Made by a program: the position numbers and the translations under genes
Part shown: positions 5,531-10,768 of the stretch, piece by piece
Layout: each line of letters begins with the position of its first letter
Numbering within the stretch: position 1 is the stretch's first letter
The notes under the pieces: generated by a model
Told to the model about the DNA's origin: nothing
The model's input: only the letters and a program-made list of their open reading frames with translations
Database searches by the model: none
Assembly: GCA_963716935.1 (NCBI GenBank)
Contig: CAVQUN010000002.1
Span: 149,830 to 213,829, forward strand
Source of the DNA: an uncultured Actinomycetes bacterium
Lineage (GTDB): Bacteria; Actinomycetota; UBA4738; HRBIN12
Direction of reading: 5' to 3'
Length of the DNA stretch: 64,000 nt

Positions 5531-6681
5531 GGGTCGCCCGCCGCATCGAGACGCTCCCGCCGTACCTGTTCGCCGAGCTCGACAAGAAGGTGTCGGCCAA
5601 GCGCGCCGAGGGCGTCGACGTCATCTCGCTCGGCGTCGGCGACCCGGACCTGCCCACGCCCGAGTACGTCCTGGACGCCATGCGCGAGGCGATCGCCGAC
5701 CCGGAGACCCATCGCTACCCGAGCTACTGGGGCTCGGCGGAGTTCCGGGCCGCCGTCGCGAGCTGGTACCGGCGCCGGTTCGGGGTGGAGCTCGATCCCG
5801 AGCACGAGGTGATCGCGCTGATCGGCTCGAAGGAGGGGATCGGCCACATCGCCTTCGCGTACCTGGACCCGGGAGACGAGGCCCTGATCCCGGACCCCGG
5901 CTACCCCGTCTACGGCGTCTCGACCCGCCTCGCGGGCGCCACGCCGGTGTCCCTGCCGATGTCGCCCGATCGCGGCTTCCTCCCGAACCTGTCGTCGGCG
6001 CCGGTGAGCGAGCGGACCAAGCTGCTCTGGCTGAACTTCCCGTCCAACCCCACGGCCGCCGTCGCTGACCCCGACACGTTCGCGGAGGCGGTGGTGTTCG
6101 CGCGGGCGCACGACCTGCTCCTGCTCCACGACGCGGCGTACAGCGAGATCACGTTCGACGGCTACGTGGCGCCCTCGGTCCTGCAGGTGCCGGGGGCGAA
6201 GGACGTCGCGCTTGAGTTCGGCTCGGCGTCGAAGTTCTCGAACATGACCGGGTGGCGCATCGGCTGGGCGGCGGGATCGGCCGATGCGGTCCGTGCGCTC
6301 GGCGTCGTGAAGACCAACCTCGACAGCGGGCAGTTCACGGCGATCCAGCGGGCGGGCATCGCCGCGCTCGACGGTCCGCCCGAGTTTCTGGACGAGCTCC
6401 GTGCCACGTACCAGCGCCGGCGCGACCTCGTCATCGAGACGCTGAACGGGCTCGGCTGGTCGCTCAAGCCGCCGCTCGGATCGTGCTACGTCTGGGCGCC
6501 GGTTCCGCCGGGTCACACGTCCGCGTCGTTCGCGGACCGGCTGCTCGACGAGGCGGGGGTGTTCGTCGCCCCCGGCAGCGGGTACGGCGAGCACGGCGAG
6601 GGGTACGTGCGCCTCTCGCTCACCGTGCCCGACGATCGGCTCGCCGAGGCGATGGAGCGCCTCGGCGGGATCGTCGCCTGA
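5527..6681 (+). CDS. dapL: LL-diaminopimelate aminotransferase (PLP class I/II)
   Basis: LPPYLFAE, LGVGDPD, LIGSKEGIGH, NFPSNPT, DAAYSE, SKFSNMTGWRIG; translationally coupled to dapF. Confidence 0.85.
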   Translation: MRVARRIETLPPYLFAELDKKVSAKRAEGVDVISLGVGDPDLPTPEYVLDAMREAIADPETHRYPSYWGSAEFRAAVASWYRRRFGVELDPEHEVIALIGSKEGIGHIAFAYLDPGDEALIPDPGYPVYGVSTRLAGATPVSLPMSPDRGFLPNLSSAPVSERTKLLWLNFPSNPTAAVADPDTFAEAVVFARAHDLLLLHDAAYSEITFDGYVAPSVLQVPGAKDVALEFGSASKFSNMTGWRIGWAAGSADAVRALGVVKTNLDSGQFTAIQRAGIAALDGPPEFLDELRATYQRRRDLVIETLNGLGWSLKPPLGSCYVWAPVPPGHTSASFADRLLDEAGVFVAPGSGYGEHGEGYVRLSLTVPDDRLAEAMERLGGIVA

Positions 6682-8027
6682 TGTCGCAGGACGGCCGCAA
6701 GCGCCCGCGGGGCGTCCACGAGACCACCACGCTCGAGTCGCCGCTTGCGGCGACCTGGCGCCCCCGCGTGCCCGAGAAAGCGGTGCTCGTCGGCGTCGGC
6801 CGCGGGATCGAGGAATCCGACCTCGACGAGCTCGCGGCGCTCGCCGACAGCGCCGGCGCCGAGCCCGTAGCGCGCGTCCTGCAGACGCGGCAGGACCCGA
6901 ACCCCACGACGTTCGTCGGCAAGGGCAAGCTCGACGAGGTCCACCAGGCCGTGCATCGCACGGGGGCGGGGGCCGTGATCCTGGACGACGAGCTCTCGCC
7001 GGGGCAGCTCCGGAACCTGGAGGAGCGGCTGAAGGTCAAGGTGGTCGACCGCACCGCCCTGATCCTGGACATCTTTGCGCTGCACGCCCGCAGCCGCGAG
7101 GGCAAGGCGCAGGTGGAGCTCGCCCAGCTCAACTACCTCCTGCCGAGGCTCCGGGGCTGGGGCGAGGCCATGAGCCGGCTCGGGGGTGGAATCGGCACTC
7201 GCGGTCCCGGCGAGACGAAGCTCGAGGTTGACCGGCAGCACATCCGGCGGCGGATCTCCAAGCTCCGCAAGGACCTGAAGGACCTTGCCCGAACGCGCGA
7301 GGTCAAGCGCTCGGGGCGCGAGCGCTCCGGCGTGCCGCAGATCGCGATCGCCGGCTACACGAACGCGGGCAAGTCGACGCTGATGAACGCGCTCGCGCGC
7401 TCGGACGTCCTGGTGGCCAACCAGCTGTTCGCGACGCTCGACCCGACGGTCCGCCGCATCGAGCTGCCGAGCGGGCGCGCGGCCACGATCTCGGACACGG
7501 TCGGCTTCGTGAGCAAGCTCCCTCACGAGCTCGTCGAGGCGTTCCGCTCGACCCTCGAGGAGGTCGCGCGCGCGACGCTCGTCCTGCACGTCGCGGACGC
7601 GTCCTCGCCCGAGCTCGCGCAGCAGATCGACGCCGTCCGCGCGGTACTCCACGAGATCGGCGCCTCGCAGGTTCCGGCGGTCGTGGCGCTGAACAAGGCC
7701 GACCGCTTGTCGCAGCACGAGCGGGCGCGGATCCTCGCACGCGTCGACGATCGCGCGGTCGCGATCTCGGCGCTCACCGGCGAGGGGCTCGGCGAGCTCA
7801 TGGAGCGGGTCGAGGCCGCGATCCCGCGGTTCCCGGTCGAGGTGGCGCTCCTCGTCCCGTTCGGCCGCGAAGACCTCACCGCGATGCTGTACCGGGAGGC
7901 GGAGGTACTGTCCGAGGACGCCATCGAGACCGGGACGATGGTTCGGGCGCGCGTGGGGGAGCGCGCGCTCGCCGCGGTGCGCGAGTTCCAGGTGGACGAG
8001 CCGGGCCGCAAGGCCGGCCTCGGGTAG
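6681..8027 (+). CDS. hflX: Ribosome-splitting GTPase HflX
   Basis: GGGIGTRGPGETKLE, GYTNAGKS, DTVGF, NKAD. Confidence 0.96.
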   Translation: MSQDGRKRPRGVHETTTLESPLAATWRPRVPEKAVLVGVGRGIEESDLDELAALADSAGAEPVARVLQTRQDPNPTTFVGKGKLDEVHQAVHRTGAGAVILDDELSPGQLRNLEERLKVKVVDRTALILDIFALHARSREGKAQVELAQLNYLLPRLRGWGEAMSRLGGGIGTRGPGETKLEVDRQHIRRRISKLRKDLKDLARTREVKRSGRERSGVPQIAIAGYTNAGKSTLMNALARSDVLVANQLFATLDPTVRRIELPSGRAATISDTVGFVSKLPHELVEAFRSTLEEVARATLVLHVADASSPELAQQIDAVRAVLHEIGASQVPAVVALNKADRLSQHERARILARVDDRAVAISALTGEGLGELMERVEAAIPRFPVEVALLVPFGREDLTAMLYREAEVLSEDAIETGTMVRARVGERALAAVREFQVDEPGRKAGLG

Positions 8028-8080: not shown

Positions 8081-8413
8081 ATGTCGCCGCCCGAGGACGC
8101 CGCCGAGCGCCACCGCGAGAAGCTCGAGGCCCTGCGCGCCGCCGTCCTCGACGGACCCGGGCTGCTGTCGCCGGAGGCCCGGCGCGCCGCCGCAAGCGGG
8201 GAGGGCGCCCCCGAGCCGTTCGCCGACTACGTGGGGACGATCCACCGAAACGCTTACCGGGTCACCGACCGGACGGTGGCGGGACTCGCCGAGGCCGGCG
8301 CGAGCGACGACCAGGTGTTCGAGATCAGCGTCGCGGCGGCCTACGGCGCCGCGCGCGCCCGGCTGGACGCCGGGCTCCGGGCCCTCGACTCCGCCCGGGA
8401 GAAGGCCCGATGA
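8081..8413 (+). CDS. Small AhpD/CMD-fold-like protein without cysteine
   Basis: IHRNAYRVTDRTVAGLAEAGASDDQVFEISVAAA resembles the helical half of AhpD/CMD proteins. Putative leaderless promoter TTGCCC-N18-CATACT-N6-ATG. Confidence 0.65.
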   Translation: MSPPEDAAERHREKLEALRAAVLDGPGLLSPEARRAAASGEGAPEPFADYVGTIHRNAYRVTDRTVAGLAEAGASDDQVFEISVAAAYGAARARLDAGLRALDSAREKAR

Positions 8414-8991
8414 GGCTCGAGTCCGTCGCGCGCGGCCGGGGCCTCGGCGCCAAGGCCAAGTTCGCGATGATCCGGCTGATGTCGGGGGCGCCGACGCTCG
8501 ACGTCGTGAAGACGCTCTCGTTCCGGCCGGCGTTCTTCGGGAACCCGTTCAACCAGCTGATCGAGGAGGTCATGCGCGGTCCGTCGGAGTGGACGGTCGG
8601 CGAGCGAGAGCTGTTCGCCGCGTTCGTCTCCGAACGGAACCGATGCGAGTTCTGAACGGGAGCCCACGGCGCGGTCGCGTCGAAGAGCTTCGGGGACGAG
8701 GAGACGCGCGCCGTCCTTCGGGACTGGCGATCGGCGCCGGTCGAGCCGAAGGTACGCGCGGCGCTCGCGATGCTCGAGACGCTGACGCTGCGGCCCGACG
8801 AGCTCGACGGGGTGGACGTGGCGCCGATGCTCGAGGCCGGAGTGAGCGAGGCGGCCGTCGTCGACGCCATGTACGTCGGCTTCCTGTTCAACACGATCGA
8901 CCGGATCGCCGACTCGCTCGGGTTCCTCACCGTGACGCCGGAGGGCTACGGCAAGAGCGCCGACCGGCTCCTGAAGCACGGGTACCTGTAG
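8410..8991 (+). CDS. AhpD/carboxymuconolactone decarboxylase-like selenoprotein (TGA 8653-8655 read as Sec)
   Basis: ERELFAAFVSERNRCEF-TGA-TGAH matches the AhpD E..N.CxxC...H motif. The frame stays open past the TGA and joins ORF 8770..8991. Confidence 0.85.
8659..8691 (+). promoter_or_regulatory. Bacterial SECIS-like hairpin
   Basis: Lower stem GGAGC/GCTTC, upper stem CGGCGC/GCGTCG, apical loop GGTC starting 18 nt after the UGA. Confidence 0.7.
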
Positions 8992-8994
8992 GGC

Positions 8995-9999
8995 CTACGC
9001 GCGGTGCGACTCGGGCGAGCCGATCGCCCACAGGCCCTCGTCCGCCCACGCCCGCTCGATCGCGACGTCCGGATCGAAGCCTCGCGCGACGGCGAACCGC
9101 AGGGCGAGCAGCTGCACCCGGGCGACGAGCGGGATCTGGGCGAGCAACGGCGGCAGGTCGGCGGTCTCGACGACACGGGTGACCGGGACGCCCTCGGCCT
9201 CGGCGGCCCGGGCGACGCCGGTGACCAGGCCGTCCGAGTCCGGCGGCTCCACGAGCACGAGGCGGTCCTGCGCTCCGAGCGGCACCGCGTGCCCGTGGAG
9301 CAGGTACTCGATGTCGTAGCCCTCGCAGGGAAAGCGCGCGGCCTCCCGGACCTTCAGCGCGCCCTCGCGAGCGGTCACGGAGGCGGGGCCCTCGCCCGAG
9401 AGCACGAGCAACCGGGCGGGGGGCGCGAAGCCGTCGGTCCCCGGATCGGCGATCGCCTCGCGCACCGCGCCGGGGATCCTCGCGAGCGCGGCCGAGTCGA
9501 CCGCCTCGGCGCCGAGCTCGTTGGCGACCCGTGCGAGCAGCAGCAGCGCCGCGGTGTAGCTCACCGAGTACGTGTGCGAGCTCTCCTTCTCGACGGTCTC
9601 GAGCGCGCCCGGCATCTCACCCCCGATCCGCGTGATCGGCACCACGCCGAGGCCGGCGTGGATCGAGATGGTCCACGCGGAGCCGGCGTACGCCGTCTCG
9701 GTGCCGGCGTTGTGGCTGATGAGGATCAGGGTGTCGCGGGGATCGATCGGCGGCGCCCAGTTCACGAAGTGCATCGAGCTCATCGCGTGAGCGCCCCGGC
9801 CCGCGTCGTGGAACATCATCGCGCCGAGCTCGGCGGCGTGCTGGCTGGTGCCGGTCCCGACGAGCCAGATGCGATGGGACTGCCGGATGCCCTCGATGGT
9901 CTGATGGGGCAGCGGTTGCTCGAGCAATCGCGCGAGCTCGTCGGGCTGCGATTCGATCTGGCGTTGAAGCGCGGGCGAAGATGGGCGGACCTCGGACAT
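8995..9999 (-). CDS. SIS-domain sugar-phosphate isomerase/deaminase (GlmS C-terminal-like)
   Basis: IESQPDEL, VGTGTSQHAA, AREGALKVRE and EYLLHG tandem SIS motifs; no glutaminase domain. Confidence 0.8.
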   Translation of the reverse strand: MSEVRPSSPALQRQIESQPDELARLLEQPLPHQTIEGIRQSHRIWLVGTGTSQHAAELGAMMFHDAGRGAHAMSSMHFVNWAPPIDPRDTLILISHNAGTETAYAGSAWTISIHAGLGVVPITRIGGEMPGALETVEKESSHTYSVSYTAALLLLARVANELGAEAVDSAALARIPGAVREAIADPGTDGFAPPARLLVLSGEGPASVTAREGALKVREAARFPCEGYDIEYLLHGHAVPLGAQDRLVLVEPPDSDGLVTGVARAAEAEGVPVTRVVETADLPPLLAQIPLVARVQLLALRFAVARGFDPDVAIERAWADEGLWAIGSPESHRA

Positions 10000-10034: not shown

Positions 10035-10703
10035 CTAGAGCTTGCGCAGCACGGCCACCACCGTGCCGAGGATGCGTCCGCCCGGGTCCATCGGGAACGG
10101 CTCGAGCGCCGGGTTCTCGGGCACGAGCAGCACGCGGCCCTTCTGCCGCTTCAGCCGCTTGACCGTAGCCTCGTCCTCCGCCGGGCCGGGCAACAGGACC
10201 GCGACTACGTCGCCGTCCTCGGCCGACTCGCCGGCGCGGACGACCACGACGTCTCCGTCCAGGATGCCCGCGCCGGTCATCGAGTCTCCGCTCACCCGCA
10301 GGGCGAAGTGCTCGCCGCCGCCGGCGAACCCGATGGGGACCGTGAGGTACTCCTCGACGTGCTCGGCCGCGAGCACCGGGGCGCCGGCGGCGATCCGTCC
10401 GACGAGGGGCACGACGACGCCCTCCACCCGGGGCTCGGACAGGGTCATCGCGCGGGGCTTGGTGGGGTCCTTGTGGAGCAGCCCGCGCCGCTCGAGGTTC
10501 TCGAGCTGGGCGTGGACGCTGGAGGAGGAGGTCAGCCCCACGGCCTCTCCGATCTCGCGGACGGTGGGCGGGTAGCCGCGCTCGTGCACGGTCTGCGAGA
10601 TGAAGTCCAGGATCCGGCGCTGCCGATGCGTGAGCGGGGGGACCGAACGTCCCCCGGGAACGATCGCGGTCTTCCCCGTCTCGGCCTGTCCCGATACCGG
10701 CAT
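10035..10703 (-). CDS. lexA: SOS repressor LexA
   Basis: GYPPTVREIGEAVGLTSSSSVH HTH, IAAGAP cleavage site, GDSM serine, EATVKR lysine; RBS GGAGGAGG. Confidence 0.97.
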   Translation of the reverse strand: MPVSGQAETGKTAIVPGGRSVPPLTHRQRRILDFISQTVHERGYPPTVREIGEAVGLTSSSSVHAQLENLERRGLLHKDPTKPRAMTLSEPRVEGVVVPLVGRIAAGAPVLAAEHVEEYLTVPIGFAGGGEHFALRVSGDSMTGAGILDGDVVVVRAGESAEDGDVVAVLLPGPAEDEATVKRLKRQKGRVLLVPENPALEPFPMDPGGRILGTVVAVLRKL

Positions 10704-10754
10704 GTCGGTGCCTCCTCCTAGGCTGGCGACGGTAGCACGAGACCCGGGAGCGAG

Positions 10755-10768
10755 CAAACATATGTTCG
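10755..10768. promoter_or_regulatory. LexA (SOS) box 1
   Basis: CAAAC-ATAT-GTTCG, one mismatch to CGAAC-N4-GTTCG, upstream of lexA. Confidence 0.8.

What the first reader, a model, noticed from the sequence alone, without database searches (positions are those of the whole stretch)
8081..8991. Hidden CxxU selenoprotein of the AhpD/CMD fold with a Cys-free partner gene
Seen: ORFs 8410..8655 and 8770..8991 are one reading frame interrupted only by a TGA. The TGA sits exactly at the second Cys of the AhpD motif (N-R-C-E-F-[TGA]-T-G-A-H) and is followed by a two-stem hairpin with a GGTC apical loop. The upstream 110-aa gene overlaps by ATGA, looks like a half CMD fold and has no Cys. Known: bacterial Sec insertion needs a SECIS just 3' of the UGA, and Sec-containing AhpD-like proteins have been predicted computationally. 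Inference: a two-subunit selenium-dependent redox module of unknown substrate that standard annotation would split in two.
Basis: partly seen in the sequence, partly recalled or inferred. Interest (0 to 1): 0.8.

Follow-up and report, generated by a model that had tools for sequence, protein, structure and literature searches.

The report
AhpD-like selenoprotein with cysteine-free partner
What looks like a gene broken by a stop codon is very probably one intact redox enzyme that reads the stop as selenocysteine, a kind of selenoprotein known since 2005, whose gene always follows a small cysteine-free relative that probably forms a complex with it.

Summary
Frame 8410..8991 is one 193-codon gene with a single in-frame TGA (8653-8655) at the second Cys of an E-x11-C-x-x-[C/U]-x-x-x-H AhpD motif.

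It is almost certainly a selenocysteine codon:
- 76 of the 80 closest loci from at least nine phyla carry TGA at this column and 4 carry TGC.
- The frame continues under purifying selection past the TGA.
- A 6-bp hairpin with a GGUC loop starts 11 nt after the UGA and shows compensatory changes.
- The genome has selA, selB, tRNA-Sec, selD (frame-split in this assembly) and a TGA-containing FdhA.

The protein belongs to, or sits at the edge of, the AhpD-like CxxU selenoprotein family (COG2128/TIGR01926). This part is a known kind.

The less ordinary point is the 110-aa Cys-free gene (8081..8413):
- It is a truncated, divergent paralogue.
- It lies directly upstream in 78 of 80 loci.
- It occurs in exactly the same 7 of 41 related genomes as the selenoprotein gene.
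- A complex model of a natural Cys-form pair supports binding (score 0.93, best control 0.09).

I found no description of this partner in print. The scan has noted the same pair before on other DNA. Substrate unknown.

The parts
8081..8413 (+). Partner gene: a 110-aa, Cys-free, truncated and divergent paralogue of the AhpD/CMD fold. Its stop TGA (8411-8413) overlaps the next gene's ATG as ATGA.
   Evidence: ORF and sequence. Homologues begin near this ATG. Weak CMD match, E 0.021. 11 of 28 family members match TIGR01926 (best E 8.6e-6) and 11 of 28 match Pfam CMD (best E 1.6e-4). Model pLDDT 92.8, with the best PDB folds all AhpD-like (TM 0.64-0.71, but E >= 0.086). Found upstream on the same strand in 78 of 80 loci.
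8397..8405 (+). Purine-rich GGGAGAAGG stretch 5-13 nt before the ATG at 8410, inside the partner gene's end. Possible Shine-Dalgarno site for coupled translation.
   Evidence: Read directly from the sequence. Not tested.
8410..8991 (+). Selenoprotein gene: 193 codons, AhpD-like/peroxidase-related (CMD fold), stop TAG at 8989-8991. Ordinary gene calling splits it into 8410..8655 and 8770..8991.
   Evidence: Pfam CMD E 2.9e-6 and TIGR01926 75.5 bits (cut-off 81.8). Profile against PDB 6K40 E 3.9e-31. dN/dS 0.09-0.48 before the TGA and 0.18-0.55 after it.
8608..8610 (+). Codon for Glu67, invariant. It lies 12 residues before Cys79, the same spacing as Glu118-Cys130 in M. tuberculosis AhpD.
   Evidence: Invariant column in A1. 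Proton-relay residues of AhpD and PA0269: PMC3141380 passages.
8644..8646 (+). Codon for Cys79, first residue of the C-x-x-U motif.
   Evidence: Cys in 100 of the 103 database homologues that cover the column (the query excluded).
8653..8655 (+). In-frame TGA, read as selenocysteine 82.
   Evidence: TGA at this column in 76 of 80 related loci and TGC in 4. TGA at this column in the 10 best matches among 41 related genomes.
8665..8667 (+). Codon for His86, invariant, four residues after Sec82 (C-x-x-U-x-x-x-H).
   Evidence: PMC3141380 passages.
8667..8682 (+). SECIS upper hairpin: CGGCGC (8667-8672), loop GGTC (8673-8676), GCGTCG (8677-8682). It follows an 11-nt spacer (8656-8666), so 17 nt separate the UGA from the loop.
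   Evidence: 98.9% of cells paired. 26 cells carry a change on both sides, against 0 of 500 shuffles as high. The central G and T of the loop are invariant in 75 distinct sequences.

Best explanation
Window 8081..8991 is a two-gene, translationally coupled operon.

The second gene (8410..8991) encodes a 193-residue AhpD-like thiol/selenol oxidoreductase. Its UGA at 8653-8655 is decoded as selenocysteine by SelB and tRNA-Sec. The signal is a 16-nt hairpin (6-bp stem, GGUC loop) that begins 11 nt after the UGA, inside the coding sequence. Sec82 occupies the second position of the E67-x11-C79-x-x-U82-x-x-x-H86 motif. This matches the proton-relay active site of AhpD. The protein should therefore cycle between a selenol/thiol form and a selenenylsulfide form while reducing a peroxide or an oxidised protein or small-molecule substrate. 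The substrate is unknown.

The first gene (8081..8413) encodes a Cys-free, truncated paralogue of the same fold. It most likely binds the catalytic chain through its long C-terminal helix, close to the active-site helix, as a non-catalytic subunit.

Shown by computation: the recoding signals and their conservation, the family membership, and the conserved gene pair. Inferred: selenium insertion itself, the heteromer, and the chemistry.
For: Cys/Sec column.
- Among 120 database homologues, column 82 is Cys in 82 and Trp in 12. The Trp calls are probably TGA read as Trp by the gene caller. It is Arg in 2 and Leu in 1.
- 6 proteins end at residue 81 and 17 start at residues 83-85, as expected of split Sec forms.
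- In genome contigs, 583 relatives were confirmed and the best 80 were examined: 76 have TGA and 4 have TGC at this column.
- In 75 of the 76 TGA loci the profile match runs on to position 192-193.
- In 41 related genomes, 11 have a match and all 10 best matches have exactly one TGA, always as C-x-x-TGA.
- 2 of the 7 full-length orthologues are from the unpublished genomes G011 and G029.

Selection. dN/dS for codons 93-193 is 0.18-0.55 in 7 comparisons. These are not independent.

SECIS.
- Of the 76 TGA loci, the best simple hairpin starts 11 nt after the UGA in 65. The loop is GGUC in 68 and AGUU in 6.
- On 75 distinct sequences, 98.9% of cells pair and 26 cells have changes on both sides, with 0 of 500 shuffles as high. 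Slid controls pair in 17-69% of cells.
- Pair 17-28 is G-U in 61 and C-G in 14. Pairs 15-30 and 16-29 each have 3 U-A.
- The loop ends covary (G..C in 69, A..U in 6) around an invariant GU.
- Several of these changes are non-synonymous, such as Gly/Ser to Ala/Ala. The pairing is therefore not a by-product of the peptide.
- The 17-nt distance from UGA to loop lies within the 16-37 nt stated for bacteria (PMC10778597, passage). A G in a small apical loop is the stated common feature (PMC1088965, passage).

Machinery in the same genome.
- selA scores 492 bits, selB 306 bits and selD 282 bits. tRNA-Sec scores 76 bits and has anticodon TCA.
- FdhA has TGA at its canonical site, with a similar GGUC(U)-loop hairpin.
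- selA is over its cut-off in 36 of 41 relatives.

Family.
- 35 of 35 aligned homologues match TIGR01926.
- The Cys-homologue model has pLDDT 92.0. The best PDB folds are 2PFX, 6K40, 2OYO and 3C1L at E about 3e-8 and TM 0.73.

Partner.
- It lies upstream on the same strand in 78 of 80 loci. One of the two misses is at a contig edge.
- It is present in 7 of 7 orthologous loci of relatives, overlapping by 4 or 1 nt or separated by 2 nt.
- A partner profile hits exactly the same 7 of 41 genomes, once each.
- No third gene is conserved across phyla.

Complex model. It was run on the natural Cys-form pair of locus L083. The protein is 52% identical in its best tblastn segment to the window's catalytic chain. 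Its partner is 42% identical to the window's partner.
- Score 0.93, best of 3 controls 0.09.
- The mark was reached by 58 of 80 solved complexes and 2 of 110 mismatched pairs. These counts hold only roughly, because my own alignments were used.
- The runs agree in at least 99% of contacts. Partner pLDDT is at least 93.
- The interface includes catalytic residues 76-79 and 149-170, and partner residues 79-102. The partner's invariant F76, E77, A83, G85, A86, R90 and G94 (L083 numbering) all fall within its listed interface residues.
Against: - No measurement of selenium insertion or of expression exists.
- The window's own 68 nt after the TGA do not fold better than shuffles (z = 0.19).
- No Rfam family matched the region.
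- selD is split between two frames in this assembly. It is in one frame in 5 of 5 relatives that carry the module. This is either a sequencing error or a recent lesion.
- The window protein scores 75.5 bits against TIGR01926, under the 81.8 cut-off.
- For the heteromer, the complex model used a stand-in pair, not the window's own proteins. AhpD-like proteins are homo-oligomers in solved structures (PMC3141380 passages), so a paralogue may score high by likeness to a known homo-interface.
- The partner's fold matches have weak E-values (>= 0.086, none <= 0.001). Its profile match to the catalytic family is modest (48% probability, E 1.8e-4, over 48 columns).
- The substrate is unknown, and no peroxiredoxin or other redox gene is conserved nearby.
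Confidence: 0.82

Rival explanations
1. The selenoprotein is real, but the upstream protein is not a subunit. It is merely a co-transcribed paralogue with a separate role, for example a regulator, a chaperone for folding or selenium handling, or an independent binding protein.
For: Binding rests on a model only. That model could echo the homo-oligomer interfaces of solved AhpD-like proteins. The partner has lost the whole C-x-x-C helix and shows only weak similarity to the fold. Among the 120 listed homologues the only apparent fusions are four read-through artefacts and one odd 233-aa protein (P0104) from a single short contig.
Against: Coupled translation is seen in 7 of 7 orthologous loci (overlap of 4 or 1 nt, or a 2-nt gap). 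The distance from the partner profile match to the next gene's start is at most 38 nt in 71 of 78 loci. Presence and absence are identical in 41 genomes. The partner's invariant residues fall within the predicted interface. The score is 0.93 against a best control of 0.09.
Confidence: 0.13
2. The TGA is a true stop. The locus then makes an 81-residue N-terminal fragment, and perhaps a separate 73-residue protein from the ATG at 8770.
For: This is what standard gene calling gives. Database entries end at residue 81 or start at 83-85. Some termination at UGA always competes with Sec insertion (general knowledge of bacterial recoding).
Against: The fragment would end inside the active-site motif, before the invariant His86. 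Codons 83-120, between the TGA and the ATG at 8770, are conserved in frame in 75 of 76 TGA loci. The first ten of these codons carry the conserved hairpin. The split database entries start right after the TGA, not at a conserved internal start.
Confidence: 0.03
3. A nonsense mutation has produced a decaying pseudogene.
For: There is an in-frame stop, and selD is frame-split in this assembly.
Against: The same TGA occurs in 76 of 80 loci from at least nine phyla. dN/dS after the stop is 0.18-0.55. The window gene has no further stops or frameshifts. FdhA keeps its own TGA.
Confidence: 0.01
4. The organism reads TGA as an ordinary amino acid (Trp or Gly), or the codon is read through by a near-cognate tRNA without selenium.
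For: 12 database gene calls show Trp at this column.
Against: TGA ends the partner gene at 8411-8413. It also ends 4 of the 7 orthologous selenoprotein genes. The long calls with Trp also read the partner's stop as Trp, which marks them as caller artefacts. The genome has a tRNA-Sec with anticodon TCA, plus selA and selB. The aligned residue in homologues is Cys, not Trp.
Confidence: 0.01

Closest known systems
AhpD-like selenoprotein family (COG2128 / TIGR01926, motif CxxU). It was predicted from Sargasso Sea and GOS metagenomes and is listed in the 2026 review of prokaryotic selenoproteomes and in BSepDB.
   Same: Same fold family, the same CxxU position of Sec, a Cys/Sec split among homologues, and a SECIS with a G in a small apical loop. 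Sources: PMC1088965, PMC2398784, PMC13188914 and PMC13326102, passages read. 35 of 35 aligned homologues match TIGR01926.
   Different: The window protein scores just under the curated cut-off (75.5 against 81.8 bits). This subgroup has an N-terminal extension and comes with a conserved Cys-free partner gene. The passages and the operon section I read do not mention such a partner. Supplements were closed and might list gene neighbourhoods.
DR1765, the AhpD-like protein of Deinococcus radiodurans (PDB 6K40), and the structural-genomics 'peroxidase-related' proteins 2PFX, 2OYO, 3C1L and 2PRR.
   Same: These are the best sequence and fold matches: profile E 3.9e-31 to 1.8e-23, and Foldseek E about 3e-8 with TM 0.73 on the Cys-homologue model. 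They share the same C-x-x-C-x-x-x-H helix. A DR1765 mutant is H2O2-sensitive and its CxxC is needed for complementation (PMC8945050 passage citing Zhao et al. 2020).
   Different: They have Cys, not Sec. Several of them (2OYO among them) were reported as homo-oligomers (PMC3141380 passages). No separate partner chain is reported in the passages read. Identity is about 25-29%.
Mycobacterium tuberculosis AhpD (the AhpC reductase).
   Same: The active-site spacing E-x11-C-x-x-C-x-x-x-H and the proton-relay idea. Its residues are Glu118, Cys130, Cys133 and His137 (PMC3141380 passages). Here they are E67, C79, U82 and H86.
   Different: The fold match is distant (1LW1, E 0.27). The motif lies in the N-terminal half here, not the C-terminal half. 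No ahpC is conserved next to the gene. The claim that the second Cys is the attacking residue in AhpD is my recollection and was not checked here.
NCBIfam pair TIGR04029 (CMD domain protein, Avi_7170 family) and TIGR04030 (alkylhydroperoxidase domain protein, Avi_7169 family).
   Same: A precedent for two different CMD/AhpD-fold proteins that appear to be neighbours. I infer this from their consecutive locus-tag names and did not check it. The catalytic chain matches TIGR04030 weakly (36 bits).
   Different: Scores are far under the cut-offs (36.2 against 233; 17.8 against 101). The window's partner matches neither model, and only 2 of 28 partner homologues touch TIGR04029 (best E 0.0025). This is not the same pair.
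The SECIS of Escherichia coli fdhF.
   Same: A short GC-rich stem capped by a loop that presents G and U, placed about 11 nt after the UGA. The fdhF details (GGUC loop, 11-nt spacing of the minimal element, SelB contacting the loop's G and U) are recalled, not read here. This genome's own FdhA gene has a GUCGUC-GGUCU-GGCGAC hairpin after its TGA.
   Different: No bulged U or long lower stem is conserved here. No Rfam model matched.

Membership tests
Bacterial selenoprotein gene (SelB-dependent UGA recoding) | In-frame UGA aligned with Cys in homologues | tested here: met
   82 of 120 database homologues have Cys at column 82. 76 of 80 loci have TGA and 4 have TGC.
Bacterial selenoprotein gene (SelB-dependent UGA recoding) | Reading frame conserved and under purifying selection downstream of the UGA | tested here: met
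   The profile match reaches position 192-193 in 75 of 76 TGA loci. dN/dS for codons 93-193 is 0.18-0.55 in 7 comparisons.
Bacterial selenoprotein gene (SelB-dependent UGA recoding) | SECIS hairpin just 3' of the UGA, with a small apical loop containing G, 16-37 nt from UGA to loop | tested here: met
   The hairpin is at 8667-8682, 17 nt from UGA to loop. 98.9% of cells pair. Compensatory changes occur in 4 of 7 pairs, with 0 of 500 shuffles as high on cells with changes on both sides. Single-sequence stability is not above chance. There is no Rfam hit.
Bacterial selenoprotein gene (SelB-dependent UGA recoding) | selA, selB, selC and selD present in the genome | tested here: inconclusive
   selA, selB and tRNA-Sec (anticodon TCA) are over their cut-offs. 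selD is present and over its cut-off but split between two frames in this assembly. It is intact in 5 of 5 relatives with the module.
Bacterial selenoprotein gene (SelB-dependent UGA recoding) | Selenium actually incorporated at the UGA | not testable with these tools
   Needs 75Se labelling or mass spectrometry.
AhpD-like selenoprotein / peroxidase-related enzyme (TIGR01926, COG2128) | Score over the curated TIGR01926 cut-off (81.8 bits) | tested here: not met
   The window protein scores 75.5 bits with near full-length alignment (30-173 to 30-174 of 178). The homologue from L083 scores 85.1 bits, and 35 of 35 homologues match at E <= 0.001, best 8.7e-32. The subgroup straddles the cut-off.
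AhpD-like selenoprotein / peroxidase-related enzyme (TIGR01926, COG2128) | C-x-x-C/U-x-x-x-H motif with an upstream Glu, on the conserved helix pair | tested here: met
   E67, C79, U82 and H86 are invariant columns in A1. The spacing is the same as in PA0269 and M. tuberculosis AhpD (PMC3141380 passages).
AhpD-like selenoprotein / peroxidase-related enzyme (TIGR01926, COG2128) | All-helical AhpD-like fold | tested here: met
   Tested on a natural Cys homologue, not on the window protein itself. pLDDT is 92.0 and the top 16 ranks of the Foldseek table are all AhpD-like/peroxidase-related entries, E 2.5e-8 and upwards.
Canonical AhpC/AhpD alkylhydroperoxide reductase system | Genomic or functional link to AhpC | tested here: not met
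   No conserved peroxiredoxin gene within 2.5 kb in the 80 loci. Activity towards AhpC is not testable here.
TIGR04029/TIGR04030 CMD-AhpD gene pair | Both proteins over the curated cut-offs of the two models | tested here: not met
   The catalytic chain scores 36.2 against 233.15 and 17.8 against 100.75. The partner has no match at E <= 1.
CMD/AhpD fold (partner protein) | Pfam CMD over the gathering score, or a clear fold match | tested here: inconclusive
   Pfam CMD scores 15.2 bits against a cut-off of 23. 11 of 28 homologues match CMD and 11 of 28 match TIGR01926, both weakly. The top-ranked Foldseek hits (through rank 14) are all AhpD-like, at TM 0.64-0.71 but E >= 0.086. hhalign gives 48% probability.

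The most novel reading that the evidence does not exclude
The AhpD-like CxxU selenoproteins of this subgroup are obligate heteromers. A cysteine-free pseudo-enzyme paralogue replaces one protomer of the ancestral homo-oligomer, sits against the active-site helix, and tunes or gates access to the selenol. The real unit would then be a two-component selenoenzyme, spread as a two-gene cassette through soil bacteria of at least nine phyla. Its substrate would differ from that of classical AhpD.
Probability: 0.45. Interest if true: 0.55.

Novelty: new variant of a known kind. Interest (0 to 1): 0.4.

Why it matters
Annotation. Gene callers cut this gene in two at the UGA, as seen in the window's own ORF list and in 23 of 120 database entries. 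Some read it through as Trp and fuse it to its neighbour. Soil genomes of Gemmatimonadota, Myxococcota, Actinomycetota, Chloroflexota and others therefore under-report a selenoprotein.

Biology. AhpD-like selenoproteins are among the most abundant predicted selenoproteins in metagenomes: 299 AhpD-like 1 sequences in the GOS table (PMC2398784). None has a known substrate. A strictly co-inherited, probably bound partner gives a concrete experimental handle. One could co-express the pair, solve the complex, and compare activity with and without the partner and with Sec against Cys.

Recoding. The hairpin is nearly invariant across phyla and has clean compensatory changes. This makes it a compact natural example of a minimal bacterial SECIS.

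Tried and rejected
- Rfam scan of 8400-9000 at E <= 10. Only four chance-level hits, no SECIS family.
- Single-sequence folding of the 68 nt from the TGA. Not better than shuffles, so I turned to comparative evidence.
Tested on 75 distinct sequences and not conserved.
- A third conserved gene. I clustered 1213 flanking ORFs of the 80 loci. The largest cluster (34 loci) is a long repeat protein, chiefly in the Gemmatimonadota loci as far as I looked (not tallied). Nothing is shared across phyla.
- Natural fusions of partner and catalytic chain. Among the 120 listed homologues, five are 225 aa or longer. Four (282-319 aa) carry Trp both at the Sec codon and at the partner's stop, so they are read-through artefacts. 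One (P0104, 233 aa, from a single 1,026-base contig) joins a partner-like piece to the catalytic domain from profile position 32. This is too thin to use. I did not run the 'longer' or 'shorter' length searches.
- The complex model of the window's own pair could not be run. The natural Cys-form pair of L083 was used instead. The window protein itself was therefore never folded.
- Sec/Cys history. A FastTree tree was built from 152 rows. Dropped rows were 7 loci with partial matches, proteins outside 185-210 aa, and those with Arg or Leu at the column. The tree needs 6 Sec/Cys changes (shuffled mean 51; starred branches force at least 2). It is unrooted, so no direction can be given.
- Earlier notes on this genome. 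None concern selenocysteine.
- Sequencing-run and read-mapping tools. Not used, because RNA coverage would not show Sec insertion.
Full report
**1. What is in the sequence**

The + strand frame from 8410 to 8991 has one internal stop, TGA at 8653-8655 (codon 82). The local peptide is N-R-C-E-F-[TGA]-T-G-A-H. The two ORFs that a mechanical ORF list gives (8410..8655 and 8770..8991) are parts of this one frame.

The preceding ORF runs from ATG 8081 to TGA 8411-8413 and overlaps the next start as ATGA. It encodes 110 residues without cysteine. Homologues start near this ATG rather than at the upstream TTG.

Eleven bases after the TGA lies CGGCGC-GGTC-GCGTCG (8667-8682).

**2. The TGA is a selenocysteine codon**

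*Family.* With the TGA read through, the protein matches Pfam CMD (E 2.9e-6) and NCBIfam TIGR01926 'peroxidase-related enzyme' over nearly the whole model (75.5 bits, cut-off 81.8, E 4.3e-21). The alignment runs across the TGA.

*Cys/Sec column in database proteins.* I aligned 120 database homologues to the protein. At column 82:
- 82 have Cys, 12 have Trp, 2 have Arg and 1 has Leu.
- 6 end at residue 81.
- 17 begin at residues 83-85.

The last two groups are what gene callers make of a Sec gene. The Trp calls are probably TGA read as Trp. In the four long ones, the partner's stop is also read as Trp.

In the best 80:
- The column is TGA in 76 and TGC in 4 (three Catellatospora and one uncultured Actinomycetota).
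- In 75 of the 76 TGA loci, the profile match continues to position 192-193 of 193.

By record title, the 76 TGA loci are:
- 40 Gemmatimonadota
- 11 Myxococcota
- 7 Actinomycetota
- 6 Chloroflexota
- 2 Acidobacteriota
- 2 Planctomycetota
- 1 Thermodesulfobacteriota
- 1 Verrucomicrobiota
- 6 records without a phylum name

*Related genomes.* In 41 genomes of the window's own order, 11 have a match. The 10 best matches all contain exactly one TGA, always as C-x-x-TGA. Seven of them, G000 included, are full-length orthologues at 49-99% identity. Two of these seven (G011, G029) are unpublished genomes.

*Selection.* Against seven orthologues, dN/dS is 0.09-0.48 for codons 1-81 and 0.18-0.55 for codons 93-193 (the comparisons are not independent). 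The part after the TGA is therefore translated.

*Machinery.*
- The same genome has selA (492 bits) next to selB (306 bits). It also has a tRNA-Sec (76 bits, anticodon TCA) and selD (282 bits).
- Its formate dehydrogenase alpha subunit has a TGA at the canonical C-N-R-T-[TGA]-H-A-P-S site, followed by a GUCGUC-GGUCU-GGCGAC hairpin.
- selA is over its cut-off in 36 of 41 related genomes, so the whole group decodes Sec.
- One blemish: selD of this assembly is split between two frames. It is in one frame in 5 of 5 relatives that carry the module. I cannot tell a sequencing error from a real lesion.

*TGA is otherwise a stop here.* It ends the partner gene, and it ends 4 of the 7 orthologous selenoprotein genes.

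**3. The SECIS**

Taken alone, the window's 68 nt from the TGA fold no better than shuffles (z = 0.19). Rfam has no match. The evidence is comparative.

- Of the 76 TGA loci, the best simple hairpin starts 11 nt after the UGA in 65, and 10, 12 or 13 nt after in 9.
- In the other two loci my energy rule picked a different hairpin, although the same sequence is present.
- The loop is GGUC in 68 and AGUU in 6.

On the alignment of 77 sequences, 75 of them distinct:
- 98.9% of cells pair, against 17-69% for slid controls.
- 26 cells have changes on both sides, with 0 of 500 shuffles as high.
- Pair 17-28 is G-U in 61 and C-G in 14.
- Pairs 15-30 and 16-29 each show 3 U-A.
- The two loop ends covary (G..C in 69, A..U in 6) around an invariant G-U.

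Cells count sequences, not events. Even so, the variants occur in different phyla. Several require coordinated amino-acid changes, such as Gly...Ser to Ala...Ala or to Ser...Glu. The pairing is therefore not a side effect of the conserved peptide. Two third-codon positions inside the stem never vary.

The 17 nt between UGA and loop fit the 16-37 nt stated for bacterial SECIS (PMC10778597, passage). A G in a small apical loop is the stated common feature (PMC1088965, passage). That SelB reads the loop's G and U, and that the minimal E. coli fdhF element sits 11 nt from the UGA, is my recollection and was not checked here.

Its pairs 10-36 and 11-35 fail in 40 and 69 of 75 sequences.

**4. The enzyme**

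The family profile matches solved AhpD-like proteins: 6K40 (D. radiodurans DR1765, E 3.9e-31), 3C1L, 2OYO, 2PFX and 2PRR.

A model of a natural Cys homologue (pLDDT 92.0) superposes on the same entries (E about 3e-8, TM 0.73). It matches S. pneumoniae AhpD, the debrominase Bmp8 and PA0269 more distantly. The window protein itself was not folded.

The invariant columns include E67, C79, position 82 and H86. Their spacing is that of the AhpD proton relay:
- Glu118, Cys130, Cys133 and His137 in M. tuberculosis.
- Glu36, Cys48, Cys51 and His55 in PA0269 (PMC3141380, passages).

A DR1765 mutant is H2O2-sensitive, and complementation needs the CxxC (PMC8945050, passage).

I therefore expect a selenol/thiol redox couple that reduces a peroxide or an oxidised partner. 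The substrate is unknown. No peroxiredoxin or other redox gene is conserved within 2.5 kb in the 80 loci.

**5. The partner**

*Synteny and co-occurrence.*
- A profile of the 110-aa protein's family finds a copy directly upstream, on the same strand, in 78 of 80 loci. One miss is at a contig edge and one is unexplained.
- All four Cys-form loci have it as well.
- In the seven orthologous loci of relatives, the two genes overlap by 4 nt (the window) or 1 nt (five loci), or are 2 nt apart (one locus).
- Across 41 related genomes, the partner profile hits exactly the seven genomes that have the orthologue, once each. It hits none of the genomes that have only other AhpD-like selenoproteins of the C-H-Y-U type.

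The pair is thus inherited, and lost, as a unit.

*What the partner is.*
- Pfam CMD E 0.021 for the window's copy.
- 11 of 28 homologues match CMD (best E 1.6e-4). 11 of 28 match TIGR01926 (best E 8.6e-6).
- A profile-profile match places its residues 49-96 on residues 119-166 of the catalytic family (48% probability, E 1.8e-4).
- Its model (pLDDT 92.8) is all-helical. Its top-ranked PDB matches (through rank 14) are all AhpD-like proteins at TM 0.64-0.71, though with weak E-values (>= 0.086).

So it is a truncated, divergent paralogue that has lost the catalytic helix pair.

*Does it bind?* The job with the window's read-through protein was not accepted. I used the natural Cys-form pair of locus L083. 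The verdict was that the model supports binding and does not show it:
- Score 0.93, best of 3 controls 0.09.
- The mark was reached by 58 of 80 solved complexes and 2 of 110 mismatched pairs. These counts hold only roughly, since my own alignments were used.
- The three runs agree in at least 99% of contacts. The partner's pLDDT is at least 93.

The interface joins the partner's C-terminal helix (residues 79-102) to residues 149-170 of the catalytic chain. It also touches residues 76-79, next to the first catalytic Cys. The partner's invariant F76, E77, A83, G85, A86, R90 and G94 all fall within its listed interface residues.

*Caveat.* Solved AhpD-like proteins are homo-oligomers (PMC3141380, passages), so a paralogue may pass by likeness to those interfaces. 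No natural fusion supports the pairing.

**6. Known or new**

CxxU AhpD-like selenoproteins were predicted in 2005 (27 sequences, PMC1088965). They were counted at 299 (AhpD-like 1, COG2128) and 70 (AhpD-like 2, Pfam CMD) in the GOS data (PMC2398784). They are listed with TIGR01926 in a 2026 review (PMC13188914) and in BSepDB (PMC13326102). For all of these I read passages only. The selenoprotein is therefore a new member of a known kind, at the edge of the curated model.

I did not find the Cys-free partner in print:
- Searches gave nothing on it in their listings.
- The passages I read of the papers named above do not mention it.
- The review's operon section mentions only Prx-like/AhpD-like clustering.

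Supplements were closed and could hold neighbourhood tables.

The scan itself has met this before on other DNA. Note e1-4787116 describes the same coupled pair and reaches the same reading. Notes e1-3335553 and e1-1239125 describe the selenoprotein alone. I reached my reading before seeing them and tested the claims on my own data.

**7. Sec and Cys forms**

On a quick unrooted tree of 152 rows (75 Sec, 77 Cys), the state needs 6 changes, against a shuffled mean of 51. Dropped rows were 7 partial loci, proteins outside 185-210 aa, and those with Arg or Leu at the column. Switches are rare, and their direction is unknown.

One Cys form (L083) still carries a perfect CGAGGC-GGUC-GCUUCG hairpin at the same distance. 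This suggests a recent Sec-to-Cys change.

**8. Verdict**

- The gene is a real selenoprotein gene: about 0.9.
- The heteromer with the partner: about 0.6.
- Chemistry of the AhpD type is likely. The substrate is open.
- Interest is moderate. The recoding is textbook and the family is known. The strictly coupled, probably bound, cysteine-free paralogue is an apparently undescribed feature of a very common environmental selenoprotein.

Noticed in passing
L010:1218-2136 (G000:C1:85598-86516, minus strand); frame break near L010:1501-1508: selD of this genome is split between two reading frames in the middle of the gene. The N-terminal motif has Cys, not Sec. In 5 of 5 relatives carrying the module, selD is in one frame. 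This is either an assembly error or a recent frameshift.
   Followed up: partly
L119:1732-1734 (G000:C4:152880-152882): The formate dehydrogenase alpha subunit has an in-frame TGA at the canonical C-N-R-T-U-H-A-P-S site, followed by a GUCGUC-GGUCU-GGCGAC hairpin. This is a second selenoprotein gene in the genome.
   Followed up: partly
L083:2755-2770: A Cys-form (TGC) member from an uncultured Actinomycetota keeps a perfect 6-bp hairpin with a GGUC loop 11 nt after the codon. It looks like a fossil SECIS. The three Catellatospora Cys forms have lost it.
   Followed up: no
Proteins P0007, P0018, P0026, P0046: Database gene calls of 282-319 aa join partner and selenoprotein into one protein, with Trp both at the partner's stop and at the Sec codon. 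These are artefacts of a caller that reads TGA as Trp.
   Followed up: yes
Protein P0104: A 233-aa Cys-form protein from a single 1,026-base contig joins a partner-like segment directly to the catalytic domain from profile position 32. It could be a natural fusion with a deletion, or a chimeric contig.
   Followed up: no
L051, L052, L069, L094, L105, L116 (hairpin loops): The SECIS loop is AGUU instead of GGUC in Chloroflexota/Ktedonobacteraceae and in Opitutales/Moanabacter records. The two loop ends change together while the central GU stays.
   Followed up: partly
L118 (G000:C8:157553-158020, minus strand): A second TIGR01926-like gene in the same genome (61.9 bits) has no in-frame stop. 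The partner profile has only one hit in the genome, so this gene has no partner.
   Followed up: partly
L031, L032, L033 (genomes G027, G004, G008): A different AhpD-like selenoprotein type (motif C-H-Y-[TGA]) occurs in three relatives. None of these genomes has the partner family.
   Followed up: partly
G029:C73:20452-21369 (unpublished genome): selD of this relative has one in-frame TGA, so it may be a Sec-containing SelD.
   Followed up: no
window 6252..8027 (+) and 10035..10757 (-): By eye, from the translations, the flanking ORFs look like an HflX-type GTPase and a LexA repressor. Neither was checked with any tool, and neither is conserved next to the module in other phyla.
   Followed up: no
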